Origin: Escherichia phage Baret
Sequence record: OR896834.1
Direction: 5' to 3' (one strand)
DNA: 64,000 nt
Shown here piece after piece: positions 21,208-32,542 of this stretch; positions within the stretch are counted from its first letter, which is position 1, and each line of letters opens with the position of its first letter. The translations under genes were made by a program, and so were the position numbers. The notes below the pieces were generated by a model. It saw only the letters and a program-made list of their open reading frames with translations, did not search any database and was not told the origin of the DNA.

Positions 21208-22019
21208 ATATTCATAAATTAGAGAACAGCGAGCCGATTACGCTGAACTTGTCTTAATGTAAGATGCGTCAAGCACTAAGATTCGTTGAATAGAGTCGGT
21301 GGGTTAGTTGTAAAACTAGTACACAGGGGGCGGCAATCCCGGTTAGTGGCTAGAACGTGTAAAATGAGGCGTCTGAAACCTCTCCCCTAAACTCTTCTCT
21401 AATTTATAAATAGTGGGGTGTGGAAATCACTTATGTAGTAACACTGCCGTCCTAGTATAATTGGTATTATCAAGCCGTAACTGGTGGAAGATGTAGGTTC
21501 GAATCCTACGGTCGGTAAGAACTGGATAACTGATGCTTTTAACGTAAAAGCTTCCGAGGTTAGTTGCGCACTGCCTAAACCACGCGGTAGTTGGTTCCAG
21601 ACTAACCAACCAGTCTGCTGAATAGTTTTATTACGATTTAACTATGCCCAGGCTAAAGAAGAACTTTAGAAGGTATTCTAGGGTAGTGAAGTTCTTTCTC
21701 CATATCGGAGTAGTTTTTCAAGCTATCCACAAAGTGGGAAATGCTGACATGAGAGATGTCACTAATGGTGCACAATAGCACAGGTAATTCGCGATAACTC
21801 CTGTTGAGTAGCAGCAAAAGGTGGGAAGTCATGACCCCAAGCCTAACCGAGTCCTCAATATACCGCAGGACATAACCACTAAGTCACCCTGACTTAAACT
21901 GGAAAATAATAGACGTTACCGTATTTTGTCTTGAAATACTTAATGAGTGAGACTTATGACTCTCCCGGTATCGTCTGTATTTTTAAGAGTTTTTACGAGA
22001 GTTCTTAAAAATACTTAAA

Positions 22020-23807: not shown

Positions 23808-23885
23808 GGTTCTCAAGCTCATATGGTATGAGCACCCGGCTCATAACCGGAAGGTACGTAGGTTCGAATCCTCGGGGAGCCACCA
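23808..23885 (+). tRNA. tRNA with CAT anticodon (Met/fMet/Ile2 type)
   Basis: 7-bp acceptor (2 GU), D-stem GCTC/GAGC, loop CTCATAA, CCA; T-stem imperfect. Confidence 0.6.
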
Positions 23886-24101: not shown

Positions 24102-24178
24102 GGGGGTGTAATCGAATTGGCATAGGTACTGGACTTAAAATTCAGGTTTTGTGGGTTCGAATCCCACCACCCCTACCA
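24102..24178 (+). tRNA. tRNA-like gene, anticodon loop CTTAAAA (TAA, Leu-type) with short variable loop
   Basis: 7-bp acceptor, AC stem CTGGA/TTCAG, T-arm GTGGG-TTCGAAT-CCCAC, CCA; type-I architecture unusual for Leu. Confidence 0.55.
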
Positions 24179-27795: not shown

Positions 27796-28187
27796 CAAAA
27801 TTTCAGTGCAGAACACGGAGCTAGCAATTCGGAAGTGCTGACTCATGATAAGCTGCCTATGTACTTGCGAAGCGGTCGTGTCCAAGACTCGGACTCTTGC
27901 ACTGAAAACAATCAAACATTCTAGCGTGGTTGATGGGGAAACCAGCTTGGCGAGGGCAGAAGCTCGTTCGATTCGAGTGAAAGAATGGTTCTCGTAAGTC
28001 CGCACAAGTGATAACAGGTTCGAGTCCTGTCTAGAATGACACTATAAAGTTTACTTATTATGTAGGTTCCGATAGACCGGCGGGTCTATTCTGGCATTTA
28101 AGAGAGGTCTCGCAAACTTCTTTGTCAGCCGTGGGGTTGGTAGCCTCCAGGTGGCCTACACAATAAGTAAATTTATTAAAAATTCAT

Positions 28188-28888: not shown

Positions 28889-29126
28889 ATTTATATAAAT
28901 TGATGAGGATTTCTCCTCATCATAGTTCACTAAGGTATTAGCTCGACCTAGGACTGGCTGCCAAAAAGCACGATCCCTACGATTCGGGAGGAGTTCTAGA
29001 TTAGTCCACTAGATTCAGCGGCAACTGAATAGTGTATTGGGTTTGCGAGATGACGCGGTTCCTTCCGCTCGAAGCGAAGGTGCTGTAGTTACGCCGAGCT
29101 AATAGCCTTAGTAAACTAAAGAATTT

Positions 29127-29205
29127 GGGGGATGGGTCTGCTAGGGGTGGACACCTCGCTTGCACCGAGGACATCAGAACGATTCGAATTCGTTATCCTC
29201 CACCA
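29127..29205 (+). tRNA. tRNA-Ala (anticodon TGC)
   Basis: Acceptor GGGGGAT/ATCCTCC, AC stem CCTCG/CGAGG loop CTTGCAC, T-arm AACGA-TTCGAAT-TCGTT, CCA. Confidence 0.7.
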
Positions 29206-29210
29206 AATAC

Positions 29211-29287
29211 GCGTGATTGATGGAATTGGCATACATACCGTCCTTAGAAGTCGGGTTTTGAGGGTTCGAATCCCTTGTCACGCACCA
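29211..29287 (+). tRNA. tRNA-like gene, anticodon loop CTTAGAA (TAG, Leu-type) with short variable loop
   Basis: Acceptor GCGTGAT/GTCACGC, T-arm GAGGG-TTCGAAT-CCCTT, CCA; type-I architecture unusual for Leu. Confidence 0.55.
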
Positions 29288-29412
29288 AATTTGATGGTCA
29301 GAGTAAATTAAACCTACTATCTCGGTTGAGCTGTTTTAATGGGTTCGAATCCCAGCGAGGCGTAACTGCCTGGTGTGATAGAGGCATCATTCCACTAACA
29401 TTGGAAAAACTA

Positions 29413-29643
29413 ATGAAACGAAAATTAAAAAAGTCTTATATAATTAAGATAAATAAGCTACGAAGTAGGGCAAAAGGATGGCCACTTCGAATATTAATTG
29501 CGGATAACCATACTAGATACCATGCGGAACAACGTCATTACAAACAGTGGGAGTCATACTGCCGCTCAAAAGCAGGTCGTTTAGATGGATCTTATGAGTT
29601 TCTATTTGGTAAGAAGCCTACTAGAGTAGCTTTAGGTAATTAA
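29413..29643 (+). CDS. hypothetical basic protein (76 aa)
   Basis: Internal ATG of track ORF 29275-29643, whose 5' part overlaps tRNA sequence. Confidence 0.3.
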   Translation: MKRKLKKSYIIKINKLRSRAKGWPLRILIADNHTRYHAEQRHYKQWESYCRSKAGRLDGSYEFLFGKKPTRVALGN

Positions 29644-29648
29644 TACTT

Positions 29649-29739
29649 GGAAGAGCAAATCGAATTGGCGACGAAAACCGCTTGGAAAGTGGCTGACTGG
29701 TAAAACGGCTTGAGAGTTCAAATCTCTCCTCTTCCGCCA
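29649..29739 (+). tRNA. tRNA-Ser (anticodon GGA)
   Basis: Acceptor GGAAGAG/CTCTTCC, loop TTGGAAA, long variable arm, T-arm GAGAG-TTCAAAT-CTCTC, CCA. Confidence 0.75.
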
Positions 29740-29751
29740 AACAATTTATAT

Positions 29752-29846
29752 GGTAGGTCAATCCAACGGCTGGCGCTGGACTCCGACTTGAAATCGGTTG
29801 ATCGTAGTGATACGGTGTAAGGGTTCGATCCCCTTACCTACCTCCA
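29752..29846 (+). tRNA. tRNA-Ser (anticodon TGA)
   Basis: Acceptor GGTAGGT/ACCTACC, AC stem CCGA/TCGG loop CTTGAAA, long variable arm, T-arm AAGGG-TTCGATC-CCCTT, CCA. Confidence 0.75.
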
Positions 29847-29851
29847 AATCT

Positions 29852-29980
29852 TGGAATATGCCGGAATTGGTAGACGGGACTGCCGAATAGGTTTACTAGG
29901 AACATCCACTCCTAGAAATATACCTTAAAAGCGGTTGAGTTAAATGGTCTAACTCATGAAGGTTCAAGCCCTTCTATTCC
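29852..29980 (+). ncRNA. atypical ~127-nt tRNA-like RNA with Leu-type D-arm
   Basis: 5' TGGAATA + D-arm CCGG-AATTGGTAGA-CGGG, two extra hairpins, T-arm GAAGG-TTCAAGC-CCTTC and 3' TATTCCT pairing with the 5' end; no canonical anticodon arm. Confidence 0.3.
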
Positions 29981-30211
29981 TTGATACATCAATGGCTCAA
30001 AGTGTAACGGTGCTATTTGATGCTCTTGGAAAGACTTTCCCGACATGCGTTCGGGGGTAAGCTTCTGAGGCTAGAATAGAAGAGTTTCTGAGAGCCGCCA
30101 CAATTGAAAATTCGTACTCGTCTTGAGCTGCGTGCAATAGGAGATAACTTGATTAGTATTCTAGAACATGCTAATTGAGGATGGTTTCGCTAACCCTGCG
30201 AGTTTTCAATT

Positions 30212-30289
30212 GTGGCTATATCATAATTGGTTAATGATCCTGATTGTGAATCAGGCCTATGTGGATTCGAATTCCACTAGCCACCCCCA
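30212..30289 (+). tRNA. tRNA-His (anticodon GTG)
   Basis: Acceptor GTGGCTA/TAGCCAC, AC stem CCTGA/TCAGG loop TTGTGAA, T-arm GTGGA-TTCGAAT-TCCAC. Confidence 0.8.
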
Positions 30290-30314
30290 AATTAACTTAA
30301 ATAGGAAATAAAAT

Positions 30315-30509
30315 ATGGCTGATTTCTGCAAACAATGCTCCATTGATATGTGGGGCAGAGATACTGGTGATCTTTCTGGGCTGATTACAGAAGCCGAAGT
30401 CAAAGAAGGTTATGGTGCAGTTGTGGTTTGTGAAGGATGCGGAGTCATTCGAGTAGATCATGAGGGTAAGCGCCTTGAAGAATCTGAGCCAGTTACCCTA
30501 TTTCCCTAA
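30315..30509 (+). CDS. small zinc-ribbon-like protein (64 aa)
   Basis: ORF track; CKQC...CEGC cysteine pairs. Confidence 0.4.
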   Translation: MADFCKQCSIDMWGRDTGDLSGLITEAEVKEGYGAVVVCEGCGVIRVDHEGKRLEESEPVTLFP

Positions 30510-30522
30510 AGTAAAGAATTAT

Positions 30523-30598
30523 TGGGATGTAGATCAATTGGCAGATCGTCGGCCTCTGACTCCGAAGGTTCCACGTTCGATCCGTGGCATCCCAGCCA
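30523..30598 (+). tRNA. tRNA-Gln (anticodon CTG)
   Basis: Acceptor TGGGATG/CATCCCA, D-stem GATC/GATC, loop CTCTGAC, T-arm CCACG-TTCGATC-CGTGG, CCA. Confidence 0.75.
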
Positions 30599-30604
30599 AA
30601 TACT

Positions 30605-30680
30605 TGGAGAGTAGTGTAACGGTTAGCACAACGGCCTTTGACTCCGTTAATGGTAGGTTCGATTCCTCCTTCTCCAGCCA
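30605..30680 (+). tRNA. tRNA-Gln (anticodon TTG)
   Basis: Acceptor TGGAGAG/TTCTCCA, D-stem GTGT/GCAC, loop CTTTGAC, CCA. Confidence 0.75.
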
Positions 30681-30687
30681 AATTAAT

Positions 30688-30762
30688 GCGTGATTAGTTC
30701 AGTGGCTAGAATAACTGGCTTCCAACCAGTAGACACGAGTTCGACTCTCGTATCCCGCACCA
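30688..30762 (+). tRNA. tRNA-Gly (anticodon TCC)
   Basis: AC stem ACTGG/CCAGT loop CTTCCAA, T-arm ACGAG-TTCGACT-CTCGT, CCA; one acceptor mismatch. Confidence 0.8.
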
Positions 30763-30776
30763 AATAAGGAAACACT

Positions 30777-31028
30777 ATGCACGTTTTTGAGTTTCGTAAT
30801 AAAAGTACTGATAAGCGAGTTATCATTATTGGAGAAACATATCGAGCATATGAACAAACTGATGGCTCTGTTATCTTGAATGATGAGAAAGGAGGTTTTA
30901 GCTTTTATCCAGAAGAACCTTATGAAGAGTTTCGAAAACAATTTAACCTAGACTGGAGAAAGCATTTAAACACTGTTGCTTCATCTGTAGTATTGCCAAC
31001 TACCAGTACTGTACTCTCTAATGGCTGA
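30777..31028 (+). CDS. hypothetical protein (83 aa)
   Basis: ORF track; SD AAGGAAAC. Confidence 0.4.
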   Translation: MHVFEFRNKSTDKRVIIIGETYRAYEQTDGSVILNDEKGGFSFYPEEPYEEFRKQFNLDWRKHLNTVASSVVLPTTSTVLSNG

Positions 31029-31187
31029 CAACCTAAAAGTAAAGATTGATAAACAAAAGAAACGTGTAGAAGTAGAGATTGGTGAAGAACGTGTTGCCTT
31101 TACTTTTGAATTTCTACAGCAAATGGCAATGGCAGTTATGACTGATAAGTCTCCTGTTATTGAAAAAGAAATCCCGTTGAAATAACG
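31023..31187 (+). CDS. hypothetical small protein (54 aa)
   Basis: ATG overlapping upstream stop (ATGGCTGA); below ORF-track cut-off. Confidence 0.3.
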
Positions 31188-31195
31188 GGATCATC

Positions 31196-31270
31196 GCTCC
31201 TAAAGCATTGCTGGCGATGCAGTTGCCTTGTAAGCATCTGAACCGGGTTCGATTCCTGGTGGGAGCACCA
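31196..31270 (+). tRNA. tRNA-Thr (anticodon TGT)
   Basis: Acceptor GCTCCTA/TGGGAGC, D-stem GCAT/ATGC, loop CTTGTAA, T-arm CCGGG-TTCGATT-CCTGG, CCA. Confidence 0.8.
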
Positions 31271-31285
31271 AATTTAAAAATTCAT

Positions 31286-31314
31286 TTGCCTTCTCTCTTA
31301 TTTATTGTTATAAT
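31286..31314 (+). promoter_or_regulatory. early promoter (TTGCCT-17-TATAAT)
   Basis: -35 31286-31291, -10 31309-31314. Confidence 0.6.
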
Positions 31315-31344
31315 ATTCATATAAATTAATGAGAGGGAAACCAA

Positions 31345-31635
31345 ATGAAACGTTATCTTTCTATTGTATTCCAAACTGGTGGTCAAAGATATACCTATGA
31401 ATTTCCATCTTCTTGGAAAATCAAAGAAGGTGATCAAGTAGTAGTGTTAACACCGCGTGAAGGGTATAAAGTAGTAATGGTTAAACAAGTATTCCCAAAA
31501 GATCATGAACCAGCTAAAGGCATTCGCTATAAGATGATTCATGGTGTGGTCCGTCAAGTACCACGAACTGAGGTAGAAGTAGATAAGACTGGAGAAACTA
31601 AATTCCATTATACTTCTTACTTAGATAGTGTGTGA
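31345..31635 (+). CDS. hypothetical protein (96 aa)
   Basis: ORF track; SD GAGAGGGAAAC. Confidence 0.45.
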   Translation: MKRYLSIVFQTGGQRYTYEFPSSWKIKEGDQVVVLTPREGYKVVMVKQVFPKDHEPAKGIRYKMIHGVVRQVPRTEVEVDKTGETKFHYTSYLDSV

Positions 31636-31650
31636 TGTAAATATTCTAAT

Positions 31651-31727
31651 ACTTCGGTAGCTTAGCGATCTAAAGCACCCGGCTGATAACCGAGAGATCG
31701 GGGGTTTAAATCCCTCCCGGAGTACCA
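31651..31727 (+). tRNA. tRNA-Ile (anticodon GAT)
   Basis: Acceptor ACTTCGG/CCGGAGT, D-stem GCTT/AAGC, loop CTGATAA, T-arm GGGGG-TTTAAAT-CCCTC (variant T-loop), CCA. Confidence 0.8.
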
Positions 31728-31826
31728 AATTTAGGAATTAAGACTATGCGTCCAGGAAAGTTTAAAAAAGCTAATTGGTCTAAAGAGTATAAAGAATACT
31801 TACTTAGTCTAGTAAAACATAACAGT

Positions 31827-31902
31827 TAGTTGGCAGAGTGGTTATGCACCTCCTTCATACGGAGCGACTACAGTGGTTCAAATCCACTACTAACTACCAT
31901 TA
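31827..31902 (+). tRNA. tRNA with CAT anticodon (Met/fMet/Ile2 type)
   Basis: Acceptor AGTTAGT/ACTAACT, loop TTCATAC, T-arm AGTGG-TTCAAAT-CCACT, CCA. Confidence 0.7.
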
Positions 31903-31936
31903 AAATAGCTAGAGATAGCTAAATTTAGGAGCAGCT

Positions 31937-32131
31937 ATGTTAACAATTAAAATAATGTCAGCCAAGAATGGTGAACATATCCATACAGGCAAAAGCGTAA
32001 GCTTTAATCCTAGAAATAAGAGATTGGCTATAGTTGGAGTAGATCAAGCCATCTTTTTAAAAGAAGATGAAGTAGCATACGTCATGAACCAAACTGGTAA
32101 GACAGTTTCCGTATACTATGGAAAAGTATAA
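31937..32131 (+). CDS. hypothetical protein (64 aa)
   Basis: ORF track. Confidence 0.4.
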   Translation: MLTIKIMSAKNGEHIHTGKSVSFNPRNKRLAIVGVDQAIFLKEDEVAYVMNQTGKTVSVYYGKV

Positions 32132-32173
32132 AGAATAAAGAGCTGAGCCAAATTCTAGCATCGTGGAGATCTA

Positions 32174-32542
32174 ATGAAAGCATATCAAAATCTTAAGTCT
32201 GGCGTAATTAATCTTGTTCATGATAATCAGATTATTCAACTGTACTCTAAAAATGGCGAACTTAAACAAAAAGTTCTGGTTGAGGATCTAGAGGGTATTA
32301 CACCCCATTTTGACCCCGAGTCCTTTCGTGAAGTCAAGGTGGAAGTCGCCCCTCAAATTGAAGGTGGTCAGCACCTAAATGTCAATGTGTTAAGTCGTGA
32401 TCAGCTTTTGGATGCACAGAAACATCCTGAAAAATACCCTCAATTAACTATCCGTGTTTCAGGGTACGCTGTGCGTTTTAACGCACTGACGCGTGAACAG
32501 CAGAACGACGTTATTAGTCGTACATTTACTCAGGCGATGTAA
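32174..32542 (+). CDS. grcA: autonomous glycyl-radical cofactor GrcA(YfiD)-like protein
   Basis: 122 aa; C-terminal [11 protein letters not shown]...[21 protein letters not shown] closely matches the GrcA/PFL glycyl-radical domain (RVSGYAV). Confidence 0.8.

What the first reader, a model, noticed from the sequence alone, without database searches (positions are those of the whole stretch)
29852..30211. Atypical ~127-nt tRNA-like gene with a Leu-type D-arm, followed by further structured RNA
The sequence opens like a tRNA-Leu (acceptor then CCGG-AATTGGTAGA-CGGG D-arm) and closes with a good T-arm and a 3' strand that pairs with the 5' end, but carries two extra hairpins and no recognisable anticodon arm. 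Downstream, 29981-30211 is also non-coding, with a 13-bp inverted repeat (CCACAATTGAAAA ~30098 / TTTTCAATTGTGG ~30200) overlapping the start of tRNA-His. This could be an interrupted or insertion-bearing tRNA-Leu, a pseudogene, or a distinct RNA.
Basis: seen in the sequence. Interest (0 to 1): 0.55.

Follow-up and report, generated by a model that had tools for sequence, protein, structure and literature searches.

The report
Known T5 stable RNAs: RNA1, RNAI, RNAIII
The stretch holds three small non-coding RNA genes already annotated in phage T5 (a leucine-tRNA look-alike with no anticodon, then two other structured RNAs); they are real and conserved, but not new, and their function is still unknown.

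Summary
The window is a T5-like phage (100% identical here to Escherichia phage vB_Eco_mar004NP2). Region 29850-30211 corresponds base for base to three misc_RNA genes annotated in T5 (NC_005859, AY692264) and BF23 (AJ604530). These are RNA1 ('tRNA-like stable RNA with unknown functions', window 29850-29993), RNAI (29994-30100) and RNAIII (30105-30210), which abuts tRNA-His.

RNA1 is a type-II tRNA-Leu-like cloverleaf. A 40-nt structured insertion extends its anticodon arm in place of an anticodon loop. Across 33 distinct homologues from four phage genera, 15 of 41 base pairs show compensatory changes, while the insertion's 8-nt loop ACAUCCAC is almost invariant.

It is not an intron-bearing decoding tRNA. 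The 'anticodon' that software extracts changes between homologues (UAA, AAA, AAC), no CCA is encoded, and the discriminator is U.

This helix pairs the 3' end of RNAI with the 5' end of tRNA-His and closes the RNAIII slot, and it persists around five unrelated interiors. It is probably an RNase III processing stem.

All three RNAs are dispensable in the laboratory (T5 deletion mutant) and are sometimes lost in nature. None is in Rfam. Verdict: already known, function unknown.

The parts
29752..29846 (+). tRNA-Ser(UGA), upstream neighbour (context); ends in CCA at 29846
   Evidence: Annotated as tRNA-Ser in HildyBeyeler and T5. Found by ARAGORN only at a relaxed threshold. Rfam tRNA-Sec model 38.3 bits, below threshold.
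29850..29993 (+). RNA1, as delimited in the T5 and BF23 records (144 nt): tRNA-like core plus an 11-nt trailer that ends where RNAI begins
   Evidence: 95% identical over 144/144 nt to BF23 rna1. Alignment to T5. Annotation 'tRNA-like stable RNA with unknown functions'.
29852..29982 (+). tRNA-Leu-like cloverleaf core of RNA1. Acceptor 29852-58/29975-81; D stem 29861-63/29875-77; anticodon-type stem 29879-83/29931-35; variable arm 29936-42/29950-56; T stem 29958-62/29970-74; U at the discriminator position 29982; no CCA.
   Evidence: ARAGORN -i; the minimum-free-energy fold reproduces the same helices; pair counts on 33 sequences.
29884..29923 (+). 40-nt insertion that replaces the anticodon loop. 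It comprises an A-rich internal loop, a 4-bp helix (29889-92/29922-25), a second internal loop and a 6-bp hairpin (29896-29901/29910-15).
   Evidence: Called an 'intron' by ARAGORN. Both inserted helices covary: 2 of 4 and 3 of 6 pairs have double changes.
29902..29909 (+). Loop ACAUCCAC of the insertion hairpin, almost invariant (one C-to-U change in 33 sequences) while its stem covaries
   Evidence: Alignments A2 and A3.
29994..30100 (+). RNAI (107 nt): 5-bp terminal stem GGCUC/GAGCC followed by single-stranded GCCA, a conserved GUAACGGUGC element, and a covarying central hairpin (30036-30058)
   Evidence: 98% identical to BF23 rnaI. RNAalifold on 23 variants: 4 pairs with double changes. 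Two interior types share the same ends.
30105..30210 (+). RNAIII (106 nt): long terminal stem closing a multi-hairpin interior; 2-nt 3' overhang at the annotated ends
   Evidence: 100% identical to BF23 and T5 rnaIII. Fold z-score -3.8 for 30101-30211 and -2.85 for 30105-30210.
30097..30114 (+). 5' arm of the closing helix (GCCACAATTGAAAATTCG): last 4 nt of RNAI, a 4-nt spacer, and the first 10 nt of RNAIII
   Evidence: Inverted repeat I1, 18 nt, 94% complementary. A 17-21-bp helix is kept around 5 unrelated interiors; one variant of the 138-nt type has a mismatch after 12 bp.
30199..30216 (+). 3' arm of the closing helix (CGAGTTTTCAATTGTGGC): end of RNAIII plus the first 5 nt of tRNA-His
30212..30287 (+). 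tRNA-His(GUG), downstream neighbour (context)
   Evidence: ARAGORN and Rfam, 59.9 bits.

Best explanation
The region holds three adjacent small-RNA genes of the T5 early tRNA cluster: RNA1, RNAI and RNAIII. They are transcribed on the + strand together with the flanking tRNA genes and are cut out by the host's RNA-processing enzymes.

SHOWN:
- RNA1 (29850-29993) descends from a type-II tRNA-Leu. It keeps the acceptor stem, the D-arm and D-loop of E. coli tRNA-Leu, the positions that would form the A15-U48 pair, the long variable arm, the T-arm and a 5-bp anticodon-type stem.
- Its anticodon loop is replaced by a 40-nt structured extension ending in a nearly invariant ACAUCCAC loop.
- It has no conserved anticodon, no encoded CCA, a U at the discriminator position, and leader-trailer pairing that lengthens the terminal helix.
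- It is therefore a non-decoding tRNA mimic, not a tRNA.
- RNAI (29994-30100) has a short terminal stem and a tRNA-like GCCA 3' end.
- RNAIII (30105-30210) is a stem-closed module.

INFERRED (processing):
- RNase P cutting at the 5' ends of RNAI and tRNA-His sets the 3' ends of RNA1 and RNAIII.
- The roughly 20-bp helix that pairs ...GCCA-CAAU of RNAI with the 3' end of RNAIII and GUGGC of tRNA-His is an RNase III site. The annotated RNAIII ends leave the 2-nt 3' overhang typical of that enzyme.

INFERRED (function, low confidence):
- RNA1 uses its tRNA-Leu-shaped body to engage a host tRNA-binding factor.
- It uses the extended arm, with its invariant loop, as a sequence-specific contact.
- In other words it acts as an accessory decoy or titrator. 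It is not a translation component, and it is dispensable on laboratory hosts.
For: Identity:
- 95%, 98% and 100% identity over the full lengths of BF23 rna1, rnaI and rnaIII.
- Same order, and the same abutment to tRNA-His, as in T5.

RNA1 structure:
- 41 pairs are 91.9% paired, against 37-51% in slid controls. 15 pairs have double changes and 0 of 500 shuffles reach the observed covariation score.
- The minimum-free-energy fold gives the same helices.
- The D-arm core is identical to E. coli tRNA-Leu(CAG).

Not a decoder:
- The anticodon call varies among homologues: taa, aaa, aac.
- TTGATA, not CCA, follows the acceptor stem.
- The phage already has a tRNA-Leu(UAA) at 24102-24178.

Functional constraint:
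- 492 phage records carry RNA1, down to about 73% identity in Klebsiella Sugarlandvirus.
- The loops are invariant while the stems covary.

Co-transcription:
- No + strand promoter or genuine terminator is found between 28700 and 31300.
- T5 annotates promoter P13b upstream of RNA2H.

Closing helix: 17-21 bp uninterrupted in all five interior types (one variant of the 138-nt type has a mismatch after 12 bp), including a compensated T-to-G / A-to-C change in DU_PP_V.

Dispensability:
- T5123 carries the deletion 29191-32442 (AY543070 coordinates), which spans rnaIII through rna1 (30284-30644). It is viable, and that fragment did not rescue infection under PARIS (PMC11464382).
- Gostya9 lacks RNA1 cleanly; TrudiRoth lacks the 3' end of RNAI, RNAIII and tRNA-His.
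Against: - Expression, stability and exact ends rest on the depositors' GenBank annotations, and I could not read the papers behind them.
- The decoy function has no direct support. No partner was identified, and the complement of the invariant loop is not enriched in the window (4 sites including the locus itself, against 1.15 expected).
- Leader-trailer pairing at the RNA1 terminus could hinder RNase P.
- The RNAI terminal stem is only 5 bp, and the rest of the RNAI fold is not resolved.
- RNAIII is too conserved to test its interior by covariation.
- Dispensability in the laboratory is also what a by-product of processing would show.
Confidence: 0.6

Rival explanations
1. RNA1 is an intron-containing tRNA-Leu(UAA) gene. 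The 40-nt insert is removed and the exons are joined to give a functional 91-nt type-II tRNA-Leu.
For: ARAGORN in intron mode returns exactly this for the window and the T5 group. One GenBank record (JLBYU40) annotates it as tRNA-Leu(taa), 134 nt. After excision, the T5-type junction gives CUUAAAA, a good anticodon loop.
Against: - In the other clades, the same procedure on the same Leu-type body yields AAA or AAC at different cut positions.
- U33 is G in the T5 group on the 5' side.
- No CCA is encoded and the discriminator is U, whereas E. coli tRNA-Leu needs A73 (established knowledge).
- The insert is itself under structural selection and has an invariant loop.
- 40 nt is far too short for a group I intron, and no intron family matches.
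- Bacteria have no known machinery for short tRNA introns.
- The phage already encodes tRNA-Leu(UAA).
Confidence: 0.05
2. The three RNAs are structured spacers. Their only role is to provide RNase P, RNase III and exonuclease signals that separate the flanking tRNAs and small mRNAs. They accumulate simply because they are well folded.
For: - They abut their neighbours without spacers.
- The closing helix ties the 3' end of RNAI to the 5' end of tRNA-His.
- They are dispensable in T5123, and RNA1 is absent from Gostya9.
- The RNAIII interior is freely exchangeable.
Against: - Processing signals do not explain an 8-nt loop, a variable-arm loop and A-rich internal loops staying invariant across four genera while the stems drift.
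- In Klebsiella phages RNA1 sits in a different context, away from tRNA-Ser and tRNA-His.
- The window-type RNAIII is 96-100% identical between phages whose RNA1 is only about 79% identical.
Confidence: 0.25
3. RNA1 is a decaying tRNA-Leu pseudogene, and the downstream stretch is non-functional intergenic DNA.
For: No standard tRNA caller finds it, and most genome records leave it unannotated.
Against: 15 compensatory pairs and 91.9% pairing. It is present in 492 records spanning four genera (Tequintavirus, Epseptimavirus, Hongcheonvirus, Sugarlandvirus). It is annotated as a stable RNA in T5.
Confidence: 0.03
4. Part of the region is protein-coding, as several GenBank records annotate short hypothetical proteins across it.
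For: ORFs of 25-47 aa exist. CDS calls overlap the region in GreteKellenberger, SuperGirl, phiLLS, DU_PP_V and the Klebsiella phages.
Against: The ORFs are short, differ between records, and overlap RNA helices or tRNA-His. The substitutions are paired across helices and interiors are swapped wholesale. The curated T5 and BF23 records call these features RNAs.
Confidence: 0.02

Closest known systems
Bacteriophage T5 / BF23 misc_RNA genes rna1 (RNA1), rnaI (RNAI) and rnaIII (RNAIII): NC_005859 30284-30644, AY692264, AJ604530
   Same: The same genes. They are 95-100% identical, in the same order and on the same strand, with the same abutment to tRNA-His.
   Different: Nothing essential. In the window RNA1 directly follows tRNA-Ser(UGA), whereas T5 and BF23 have a small ORF between them.
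Bacterial type-II tRNA-Leu (for example E. coli tRNA-Leu(CAG))
   Same: Cloverleaf with a 3-bp D stem plus G13.A22, an identical D-loop, A15/U48, a long variable arm and a GGUUCAAGYCC T-loop.
   Different: The anticodon loop is replaced by a 40-nt structured extension. There is no conserved anticodon and no CCA. The discriminator is U instead of A73, and the terminal helix is extended by leader-trailer pairing. It scores below the Rfam tRNA threshold.
Phage T4 species 1 and species 2 stable RNAs (rnaC, rnaD) in the T4 tRNA cluster
   Same: Small stable RNAs of unknown function that lie inside a phage tRNA gene cluster next to a tRNA. T4 rnaC also carries a T-arm-like 3' domain.
   Different: There is no detectable sequence similarity to any of the six T5-type RNAs of the window. 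They are an analogy, not homologues.
tRNA-Leu(UAA) genes interrupted by a group I intron (cyanobacteria, plastids)
   Same: A Leu(UAA)-type tRNA body with extra sequence in the anticodon region.
   Different: The insert is 40 nt, not 200-300 nt. It lies before position 32 rather than between positions 34 and 35, and no group I intron model matches.

Membership tests
T5-group stable RNAs RNA1 / RNAI / RNAIII (GenBank misc_RNA of T5 and BF23) | Full-length sequence homology to the annotated rna1, rnaI and rnaIII | tested here: met
   95.1% over 144/144 nt, 98.1% over 107/107 nt and 100% over 106/106 nt against BF23; three-way alignment with T5.
T5-group stable RNAs RNA1 / RNAI / RNAIII (GenBank misc_RNA of T5 and BF23) | Synteny: order RNA1-RNAI-(4 nt)-RNAIII-tRNA-His on the strand of the tRNA cluster | tested here: met
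   compared with window coordinates.
T5-group stable RNAs RNA1 / RNAI / RNAIII (GenBank misc_RNA of T5 and BF23) | Accumulation as discrete stable RNAs in infected cells | not testable with these tools
   This rests on the depositors' notes ('stable RNA').
Canonical tRNA (Rfam RF00005) | Score at or above the curated threshold of the tRNA covariance model | tested here: not met
   Best match 21.6 bits against 29, covering only 29914-29982. No hit at the gathering threshold.
Canonical tRNA (Rfam RF00005) | Acceptor, D, anticodon and T stems supported by covariation | tested here: met
   Double changes in 4 of 6 acceptor pairs and 3 of 5 anticodon-stem pairs. The D stem is invariant; the T stem is invariant apart from one one-sided change (A-U to G-U), and every cell in both stems pairs.
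Canonical tRNA (Rfam RF00005) | 7-nt anticodon loop with U33 and an anticodon conserved among orthologues | tested here: not met
   The loop is replaced by a 47-48-nt extension. Forced excision gives taa, aaa or aac depending on the clade.
Canonical tRNA (Rfam RF00005) | Aminoacylatable 3' end (discriminator plus CCA; A73 for E. coli LeuRS) | tested here: not met
   UUGAUA follows the acceptor stem in Markadamsvirinae and DU_PP_V; the Klebsiella phages have AGCG. Post-transcriptional CCA addition cannot be excluded with these tools.
Group I intron-containing tRNA-Leu(UAA) | Group I intron fold (P1-P9, more than 200 nt) inserted in the anticodon | tested here: not met
   The insert is 40 nt. 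No intron family matches at E up to 10 in 29852-30211.
tmRNA | tRNA-Ala-like domain plus a tag reading frame | tested here: not met
   ARAGORN finds no tmRNA. The Rfam tmRNA fragments score about 10 bits and lie elsewhere.
T4 species 1 / species 2 RNAs (rnaC, rnaD) | Sequence homology | tested here: not met
   Only chance 7-10-nt matches.
RNase III processing stem | Uninterrupted double helix of about two turns flanking the excised RNA | tested here: met
   17-21 bp in all five interior types; one variant of the 138-nt type has a mismatch after 12 bp. 18 nt at 94% complementarity in the window.
RNase III processing stem | Cleavage by RNase III leaving 2-nt 3' overhangs | not testable with these tools
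   The annotated RNAIII ends (30105 and 30210) leave a 2-nt 3' overhang on the helix. The enzyme responsible has not been tested.

The most novel reading that the evidence does not exclude
RNA1 is an anti-defence or host-takeover decoy. Its tRNA-Leu-shaped body would dock onto a host tRNA-binding enzyme or tRNA-targeting immune nuclease, while the extended arm, with its invariant ACAUCCAC loop, blocks or redirects that partner. The neighbouring RNAIII slot would be a stem-closed, exchangeable small-RNA cassette (at least five unrelated interiors between constant CCACAATTGA / TCAATTGTGG arms). Together they would form an 'accessory RNA island' in T5-like phages, analogous to protein accessory-gene hotspots.
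Probability: 0.15. Interest if true: 0.7.

Novelty: already known. Interest (0 to 1): 0.3.

Why it matters
The genes themselves are not new. They have been annotated as RNA1, RNAI and RNAIII in the T5 and BF23 records for about twenty years, always with 'unknown functions'.

The practical value lies in annotation. Among the sampled hits of about 490 related phage genomes, only the BF23 record names RNA1; the rest leave it blank, call short 'hypothetical proteins' across it, or label RNA1 as tRNA-Leu(taa). No Rfam family exists for any of the three.

The comparative analysis here adds four things:
- a covariation-backed structure for RNA1;
- evidence that RNA1 cannot be a decoder;
- the invariant loops that are the obvious targets for mutagenesis;
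- a processing model for the RNAI-RNAIII-tRNA-His junction.

If the tRNA mimic turns out to act on a host tRNA-binding or tRNA-cleaving factor, it would add an RNA-based layer to the known role of T5 tRNAs in evading tRNA-targeting defences.

Tried and rejected
- Rfam, at both gathering and permissive thresholds, on the window and on six related loci: no family for RNA1, RNAI, RNAIII or the alternative modules.
- A 14-mer scan of viral contigs (GGAACATCCACTCC) gave mostly chance hits. A gapped pattern was specific (25 viral loci; 15 metagenome loci, of which 4 were chance). It found only one hit, by its different spacing probably chance, among the representative genomes of 185,579 bacterial and archaeal species, so no cellular homologue was detected.
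- BLAST of an artificially 'spliced' RNA1 against E. coli genomes found nothing. A direct alignment with a verified E. coli tRNA-Leu was used instead.
- The complement of the invariant loop (GTGGATGT) is not convincingly enriched in the window. An anti-Shine-Dalgarno resemblance was considered and dropped because the CUCC part lies in the stem and changes in the Klebsiella phages.
- A 14-nt complementarity between the 3' part of RNA1 and RNAI is absent from the other sequence types and was treated as chance.
- T4 rnaC and rnaD were fetched and compared; they are not homologous.
- Literature searches found no functional study of these RNAs. They yielded only the T5 deletion-mutant data in the PARIS paper.
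- The simple promoter and terminator scans gave nothing useful inside the region. The two + strand 'terminators' are the RNA1 T-arm and a small RNAIII hairpin.
Full report
**What the window is.** The 1-kb stretch around the finding is 100% identical to Escherichia phage vB_Eco_mar004NP2 and several Salmonella phages. It is 92-96% identical to other members of the genus Tequintavirus, the T5-like phages. The finding lies inside the large tRNA gene cluster (22 tRNAs by ARAGORN, all on the + strand). It sits between a tRNA-Ser(UGA) at 29752-29846 and tRNA-His at 30212-30287. Default ARAGORN misses that tRNA-Ser, but related records annotate it.

**Checking the observation.**
- a 5' strand, 29852-29858, that pairs with 29975-29981;
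- a D-arm CCG-GAATTGGTAGA-CGG;
- a T-arm GAAGG-TTCAAGC-CCTTC;
- two more hairpins.

No standard tool calls a tRNA here. ARAGORN in default mode finds nothing. Rfam finds nothing at gathering thresholds. At E up to 10, the tRNA model reaches only 21.6 bits (threshold 29) over the 3' half. The inverted repeat near tRNA-His is real and longer than reported: 18 nt at 94% complementarity, 30097-30114 with 30199-30216.

**These are known genes.** The curated T5 and BF23 records annotate three misc_RNA genes in exactly this position:
- The T5 records are NC_005859 and AY692264; the BF23 tRNA-region record is AJ604530.
- rna1 is described as 'tRNA-like stable RNA with unknown functions' (144 nt).
- rnaI (107 nt) and rnaIII (106 nt) are described as 'stable RNA with unknown functions'.
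- rnaIII follows rnaI after a 4-nt gap and directly abuts tRNA-His.

BLAST of the BF23 features onto the window gives RNA1 = 29850-29993 (95%), RNAI = 29994-30100 (98%) and RNAIII = 30105-30210 (100%) (alignment). The same records annotate three more such RNAs, which are also present in the window: RNA2 at 27917-28040, RNAIV at 28060-28162 and RNA2H at 28936-29107.

Most other genome records leave the region blank. Several place short 'hypothetical protein' CDSs on it, and one (JLBYU40) calls RNA1 a 134-nt tRNA-Leu(taa).

**Anatomy of RNA1.**
- *Software call.* In intron mode, ARAGORN returns a 91-nt type-II tRNA-Leu(taa) at 29852-29982. To do so it removes 40 nt (29884-29923) between the 5' strand of the anticodon stem and a CUUAAAA loop.
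- *Thermodynamic fold.* Folding alone reproduces the same helices and shows that the 40 nt are structured. An internal loop is followed by a 4-bp helix (29889-92/29922-25), a second internal loop, and a 6-bp hairpin (29896-29901/29910-15) with the loop ACAUCCAC.
- *Homologues.* I collected sequences from annotated phage records and from viral and metagenomic contigs. This gave 33 distinct sequences from Tequintavirus, Epseptimavirus, Hongcheonvirus (Pectobacterium phage DU_PP_V) and Sugarlandvirus (Klebsiella phages).
- *Overall pair counts.* On this alignment the 41 proposed pairs are formed in 91.9% of cells, against 37-51% when partners are slid by 1-3 columns. 15 pairs change on both sides, and no shuffle out of 500 reaches the observed covariation score.
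- *Which helices covary.* Double changes occur in the acceptor stem (4 of 6 pairs), the anticodon-type stem (3 of 5), the inserted helix (2 of 4), the inserted hairpin (3 of 6) and the variable arm (1 of 7). The D stem is invariant. The T stem is invariant apart from one one-sided A-U to G-U change. Every cell pairs in both stems.
- *Invariant loops.* Several unpaired elements stay invariant or nearly so:
  - the D-loop;
  - the variable-arm loop block UAAAUGGUCUA;
  - the T-loop;
  - the insertion loop ACAUCCAC;
  - several A residues of the internal loops.
- *Likely origin.* The 15-nt D-arm core CGGAATTGGTAGACG is identical to E. coli tRNA-Leu(CAG). The phage's own decoding tRNA-Leu genes are 77 nt, lack the long variable arm and resemble RNA1 less.

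**Why RNA1 is not a decoding tRNA.**
- Run on the homologues, ARAGORN keeps the Leu-type body. However, it extracts anticodon taa in the T5 group, aaa in the HildyBeyeler-type Tequintavirus sequences, Epseptimavirus and Klebsiella phages, and aac in DU_PP_V, each with a different cut position. The A-rich flanks simply allow some 7-nt loop to be forced. No anticodon or U33 is conserved.
- The acceptor stem is followed by UUGAUA (AGCG in the Klebsiella phages), not CCA. Most of the phage's genuine tRNAs (23 of 26 listed) and RNAI encode CCA.
- The discriminator is U, whereas E. coli LeuRS requires A73 (established knowledge of tRNA-Leu identity).
- In both major clades, leader and trailer extend the terminal helix using different sequences.
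- A tRNA-Leu(UAA) already exists at 24102-24178.
- Forty nucleotides cannot be a group I intron, and no intron model matches.

The pseudogene reading is excluded by the covariation, and by the presence of RNA1 in 492 records at down to about 73% identity.

**RNAI.**
- All variants begin GGCUCAAAG(U/A)GUAACGGUGC and end GAGUUUC(U/G)GAGAGCC-GCCA. DU_PP_V has compensated changes in the 5-bp terminal stem.
- The interior comes in two diverged types that still share a central hairpin with compensatory changes.
- The single-stranded GCCA after a terminal stem is a tRNA-like 3' end.
- The rest of the fold is not resolved by my data.

**RNAIII and the inverted repeat.**
- *Conservation.* The window-type RNAIII is 96-100% identical even between phages whose RNA1 is about 79% identical. 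Its interior therefore cannot be tested by covariation, though it folds much better than shuffles (z = -3.8).
- *Exchangeable interior.* At the same position other phages carry unrelated interiors of 68, 122, 126 and 138 nt.
- *Constant closing helix.* Every one of these interiors is closed by the same kind of helix. Counted from the GCCA of RNAI to the GUGGC of tRNA-His, it runs 17-21 bp without interruption, and only one variant of the 138-nt type has a mismatch, after 12 bp. Its inner part is built from different sequences in each type, and DU_PP_V has a compensated T-to-G / A-to-C change in the constant part.
- *Processing inference.* The annotated RNAIII ends (30105 and 30210) lie on this helix with a 2-nt 3' overhang, the signature of RNase III. 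I therefore infer the following steps:
  - The helix is an RNase III processing site that separates RNAI, RNAIII and tRNA-His.
  - Exonucleases then trim the 4-nt CAAU back to the CCA of RNAI.
  - RNase P finishes the tRNA-His 5' end.
  This is inference. It depends on the depositors' end coordinates having been mapped experimentally.

**Context and dispensability.**
- No + strand sigma-70-like promoter or genuine terminator lies between 28700 and 31300, and T5 annotates promoter P13b upstream of RNA2H. The three RNAs are therefore most likely co-transcribed with the flanking tRNAs.
- The PARIS study used T5 mutant T5123, whose deletion 29191-32442 (AY543070 coordinates) spans rnaIII through rna1 (30284-30644 in the RefSeq copy). 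The mutant forms plaques, and only the fragment carrying tRNA-Lys rescued it under PARIS; 'other fragments had no effect' (PMC11464382).
- In nature, Gostya9 has lost RNA1 cleanly (tRNA-Ser-CCA-AATAAT-RNAI). TrudiRoth has lost the 3' end of RNAI, RNAIII and tRNA-His.
- In the Klebsiella phages RNA1 sits in a different neighbourhood, without RNAI, RNAIII or tRNA-His.

RNA1 is thus an independent, accessory module.

**How it most likely works.**
- *Shown:* identity with the T5 RNAs; the tRNA-Leu-derived fold with an extended, anticodon-less arm; strong purifying selection on the loops.
- *Inferred:* excision by host RNase P and RNase III.
- *Inferred, with low confidence:* function. The combination of a tRNA-Leu-shaped core that cannot decode or be charged as encoded, an added arm with an invariant 8-nt loop, accessory status and a phage-only distribution fits best with a tRNA mimic that titrates or redirects a host tRNA-binding factor.
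  - The phage-only distribution rests on the pattern scan: only one hit, by its different spacing probably chance, among the representative genomes of 185,579 bacterial and archaeal species.
  - I found no partner. The complement of the loop is not convincingly enriched in the window.

The main rival is that these RNAs are only structured processing spacers. That explains their position and dispensability, but not the invariant loops.

**Comparison with known systems.**
- *Membership* in the T5 RNA1, RNAI and RNAIII gene set is met on homology and synteny.
- *Membership in canonical tRNA* fails on the model score, the anticodon loop and the 3' end, although four stems are tRNA-like.
- *Other families.* Group I intron-bearing tRNA-Leu and tmRNA are not met.
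- *Closest analogy.* T4 species 1 and 2 RNAs (rnaC, rnaD) are also stable RNAs of unknown function inside a phage tRNA cluster, but they share no sequence similarity with the T5-type RNAs.
- *Rfam.* None of the three RNAs, and none of the alternative modules, has an Rfam family.

**Verdict.** The feature is real but already known, and its function remains unknown. What is added here:
- a covariation-backed structure;
- the argument against decoding or splicing;
- the RNase III-type junction model;
- the modular RNAIII slot.

Interest is modest (0.3). It would rise substantially only if a specific host target of the tRNA mimic were found.

Noticed in passing
window 29649-29739 and 29752-29846: Two tRNA-Ser genes (anticodons GGA and UGA, each with an encoded CCA) are missed by default ARAGORN and by the Rfam tRNA model. 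The second scores only against the tRNA-Sec model (38.3 bits, below threshold). T5, BF23 and HildyBeyeler annotate both as tRNA-Ser. Their D-arms are unusual.
   Followed up: partly
window 24102-24178 and 29211-29287: The phage's decoding tRNA-Leu(UAA) and tRNA-Leu(UAG) are only 77 nt, with a short variable loop, unlike bacterial type-II tRNA-Leu. The non-decoding RNA1 keeps the long variable arm. BF23 notes say the UAG species becomes an efficient amber suppressor when its anticodon is changed.
   Followed up: partly
window 27917-28040, 28060-28162, 28936-29107: Three further T5-type RNAs of unknown function are present: RNA2 (tRNA-like, with an 8-bp terminal stem, a T-arm and a large middle insertion), RNAIV and RNA2H. 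They are 95-97% identical to the BF23 features. None has an Rfam family.
   Followed up: partly
window 30101-30211; loci L129, L130, L146 (68 nt), L131 (122 nt), L138, L168 (126 nt), L124, L132, L139 (138 nt): The RNAIII position is a hypervariable slot. At least five unrelated interiors sit between the constant arms CCACAATTGA and TCAATTGTGG, which suggests cassette exchange between phages at this spot.
   Followed up: partly
L132 (UTK0009) and L139 (bastian), between RNA1 and RNAI: An extra, apparently structured element of about 125 nt is inserted between RNA1 and RNAI in these Epseptimavirus genomes. It is absent from the window.
   Followed up: no
L133 (Klebsiella phage vB_Kpn_3), RNA1 homologue: This RNA1 looks chimeric: the 5' half is of the HildyBeyeler type and the 3' half of the Epseptimavirus type. 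This creates an A.C mismatch in the inserted helix and suggests recombination inside the RNA gene.
   Followed up: no
window 21446-21517 and 23808-23882: Two Rfam tRNA hits above threshold (35.5 and 40.3 bits) that ARAGORN did not call.
   Followed up: no
L175 (Gostya9) and L176 (TrudiRoth): Natural deletion variants. Gostya9 lacks RNA1 exactly. In TrudiRoth a truncated RNAI is joined to tRNA-Thr, with RNAIII and tRNA-His lost. Homing endonuclease genes lie nearby in several relatives.
   Followed up: partly
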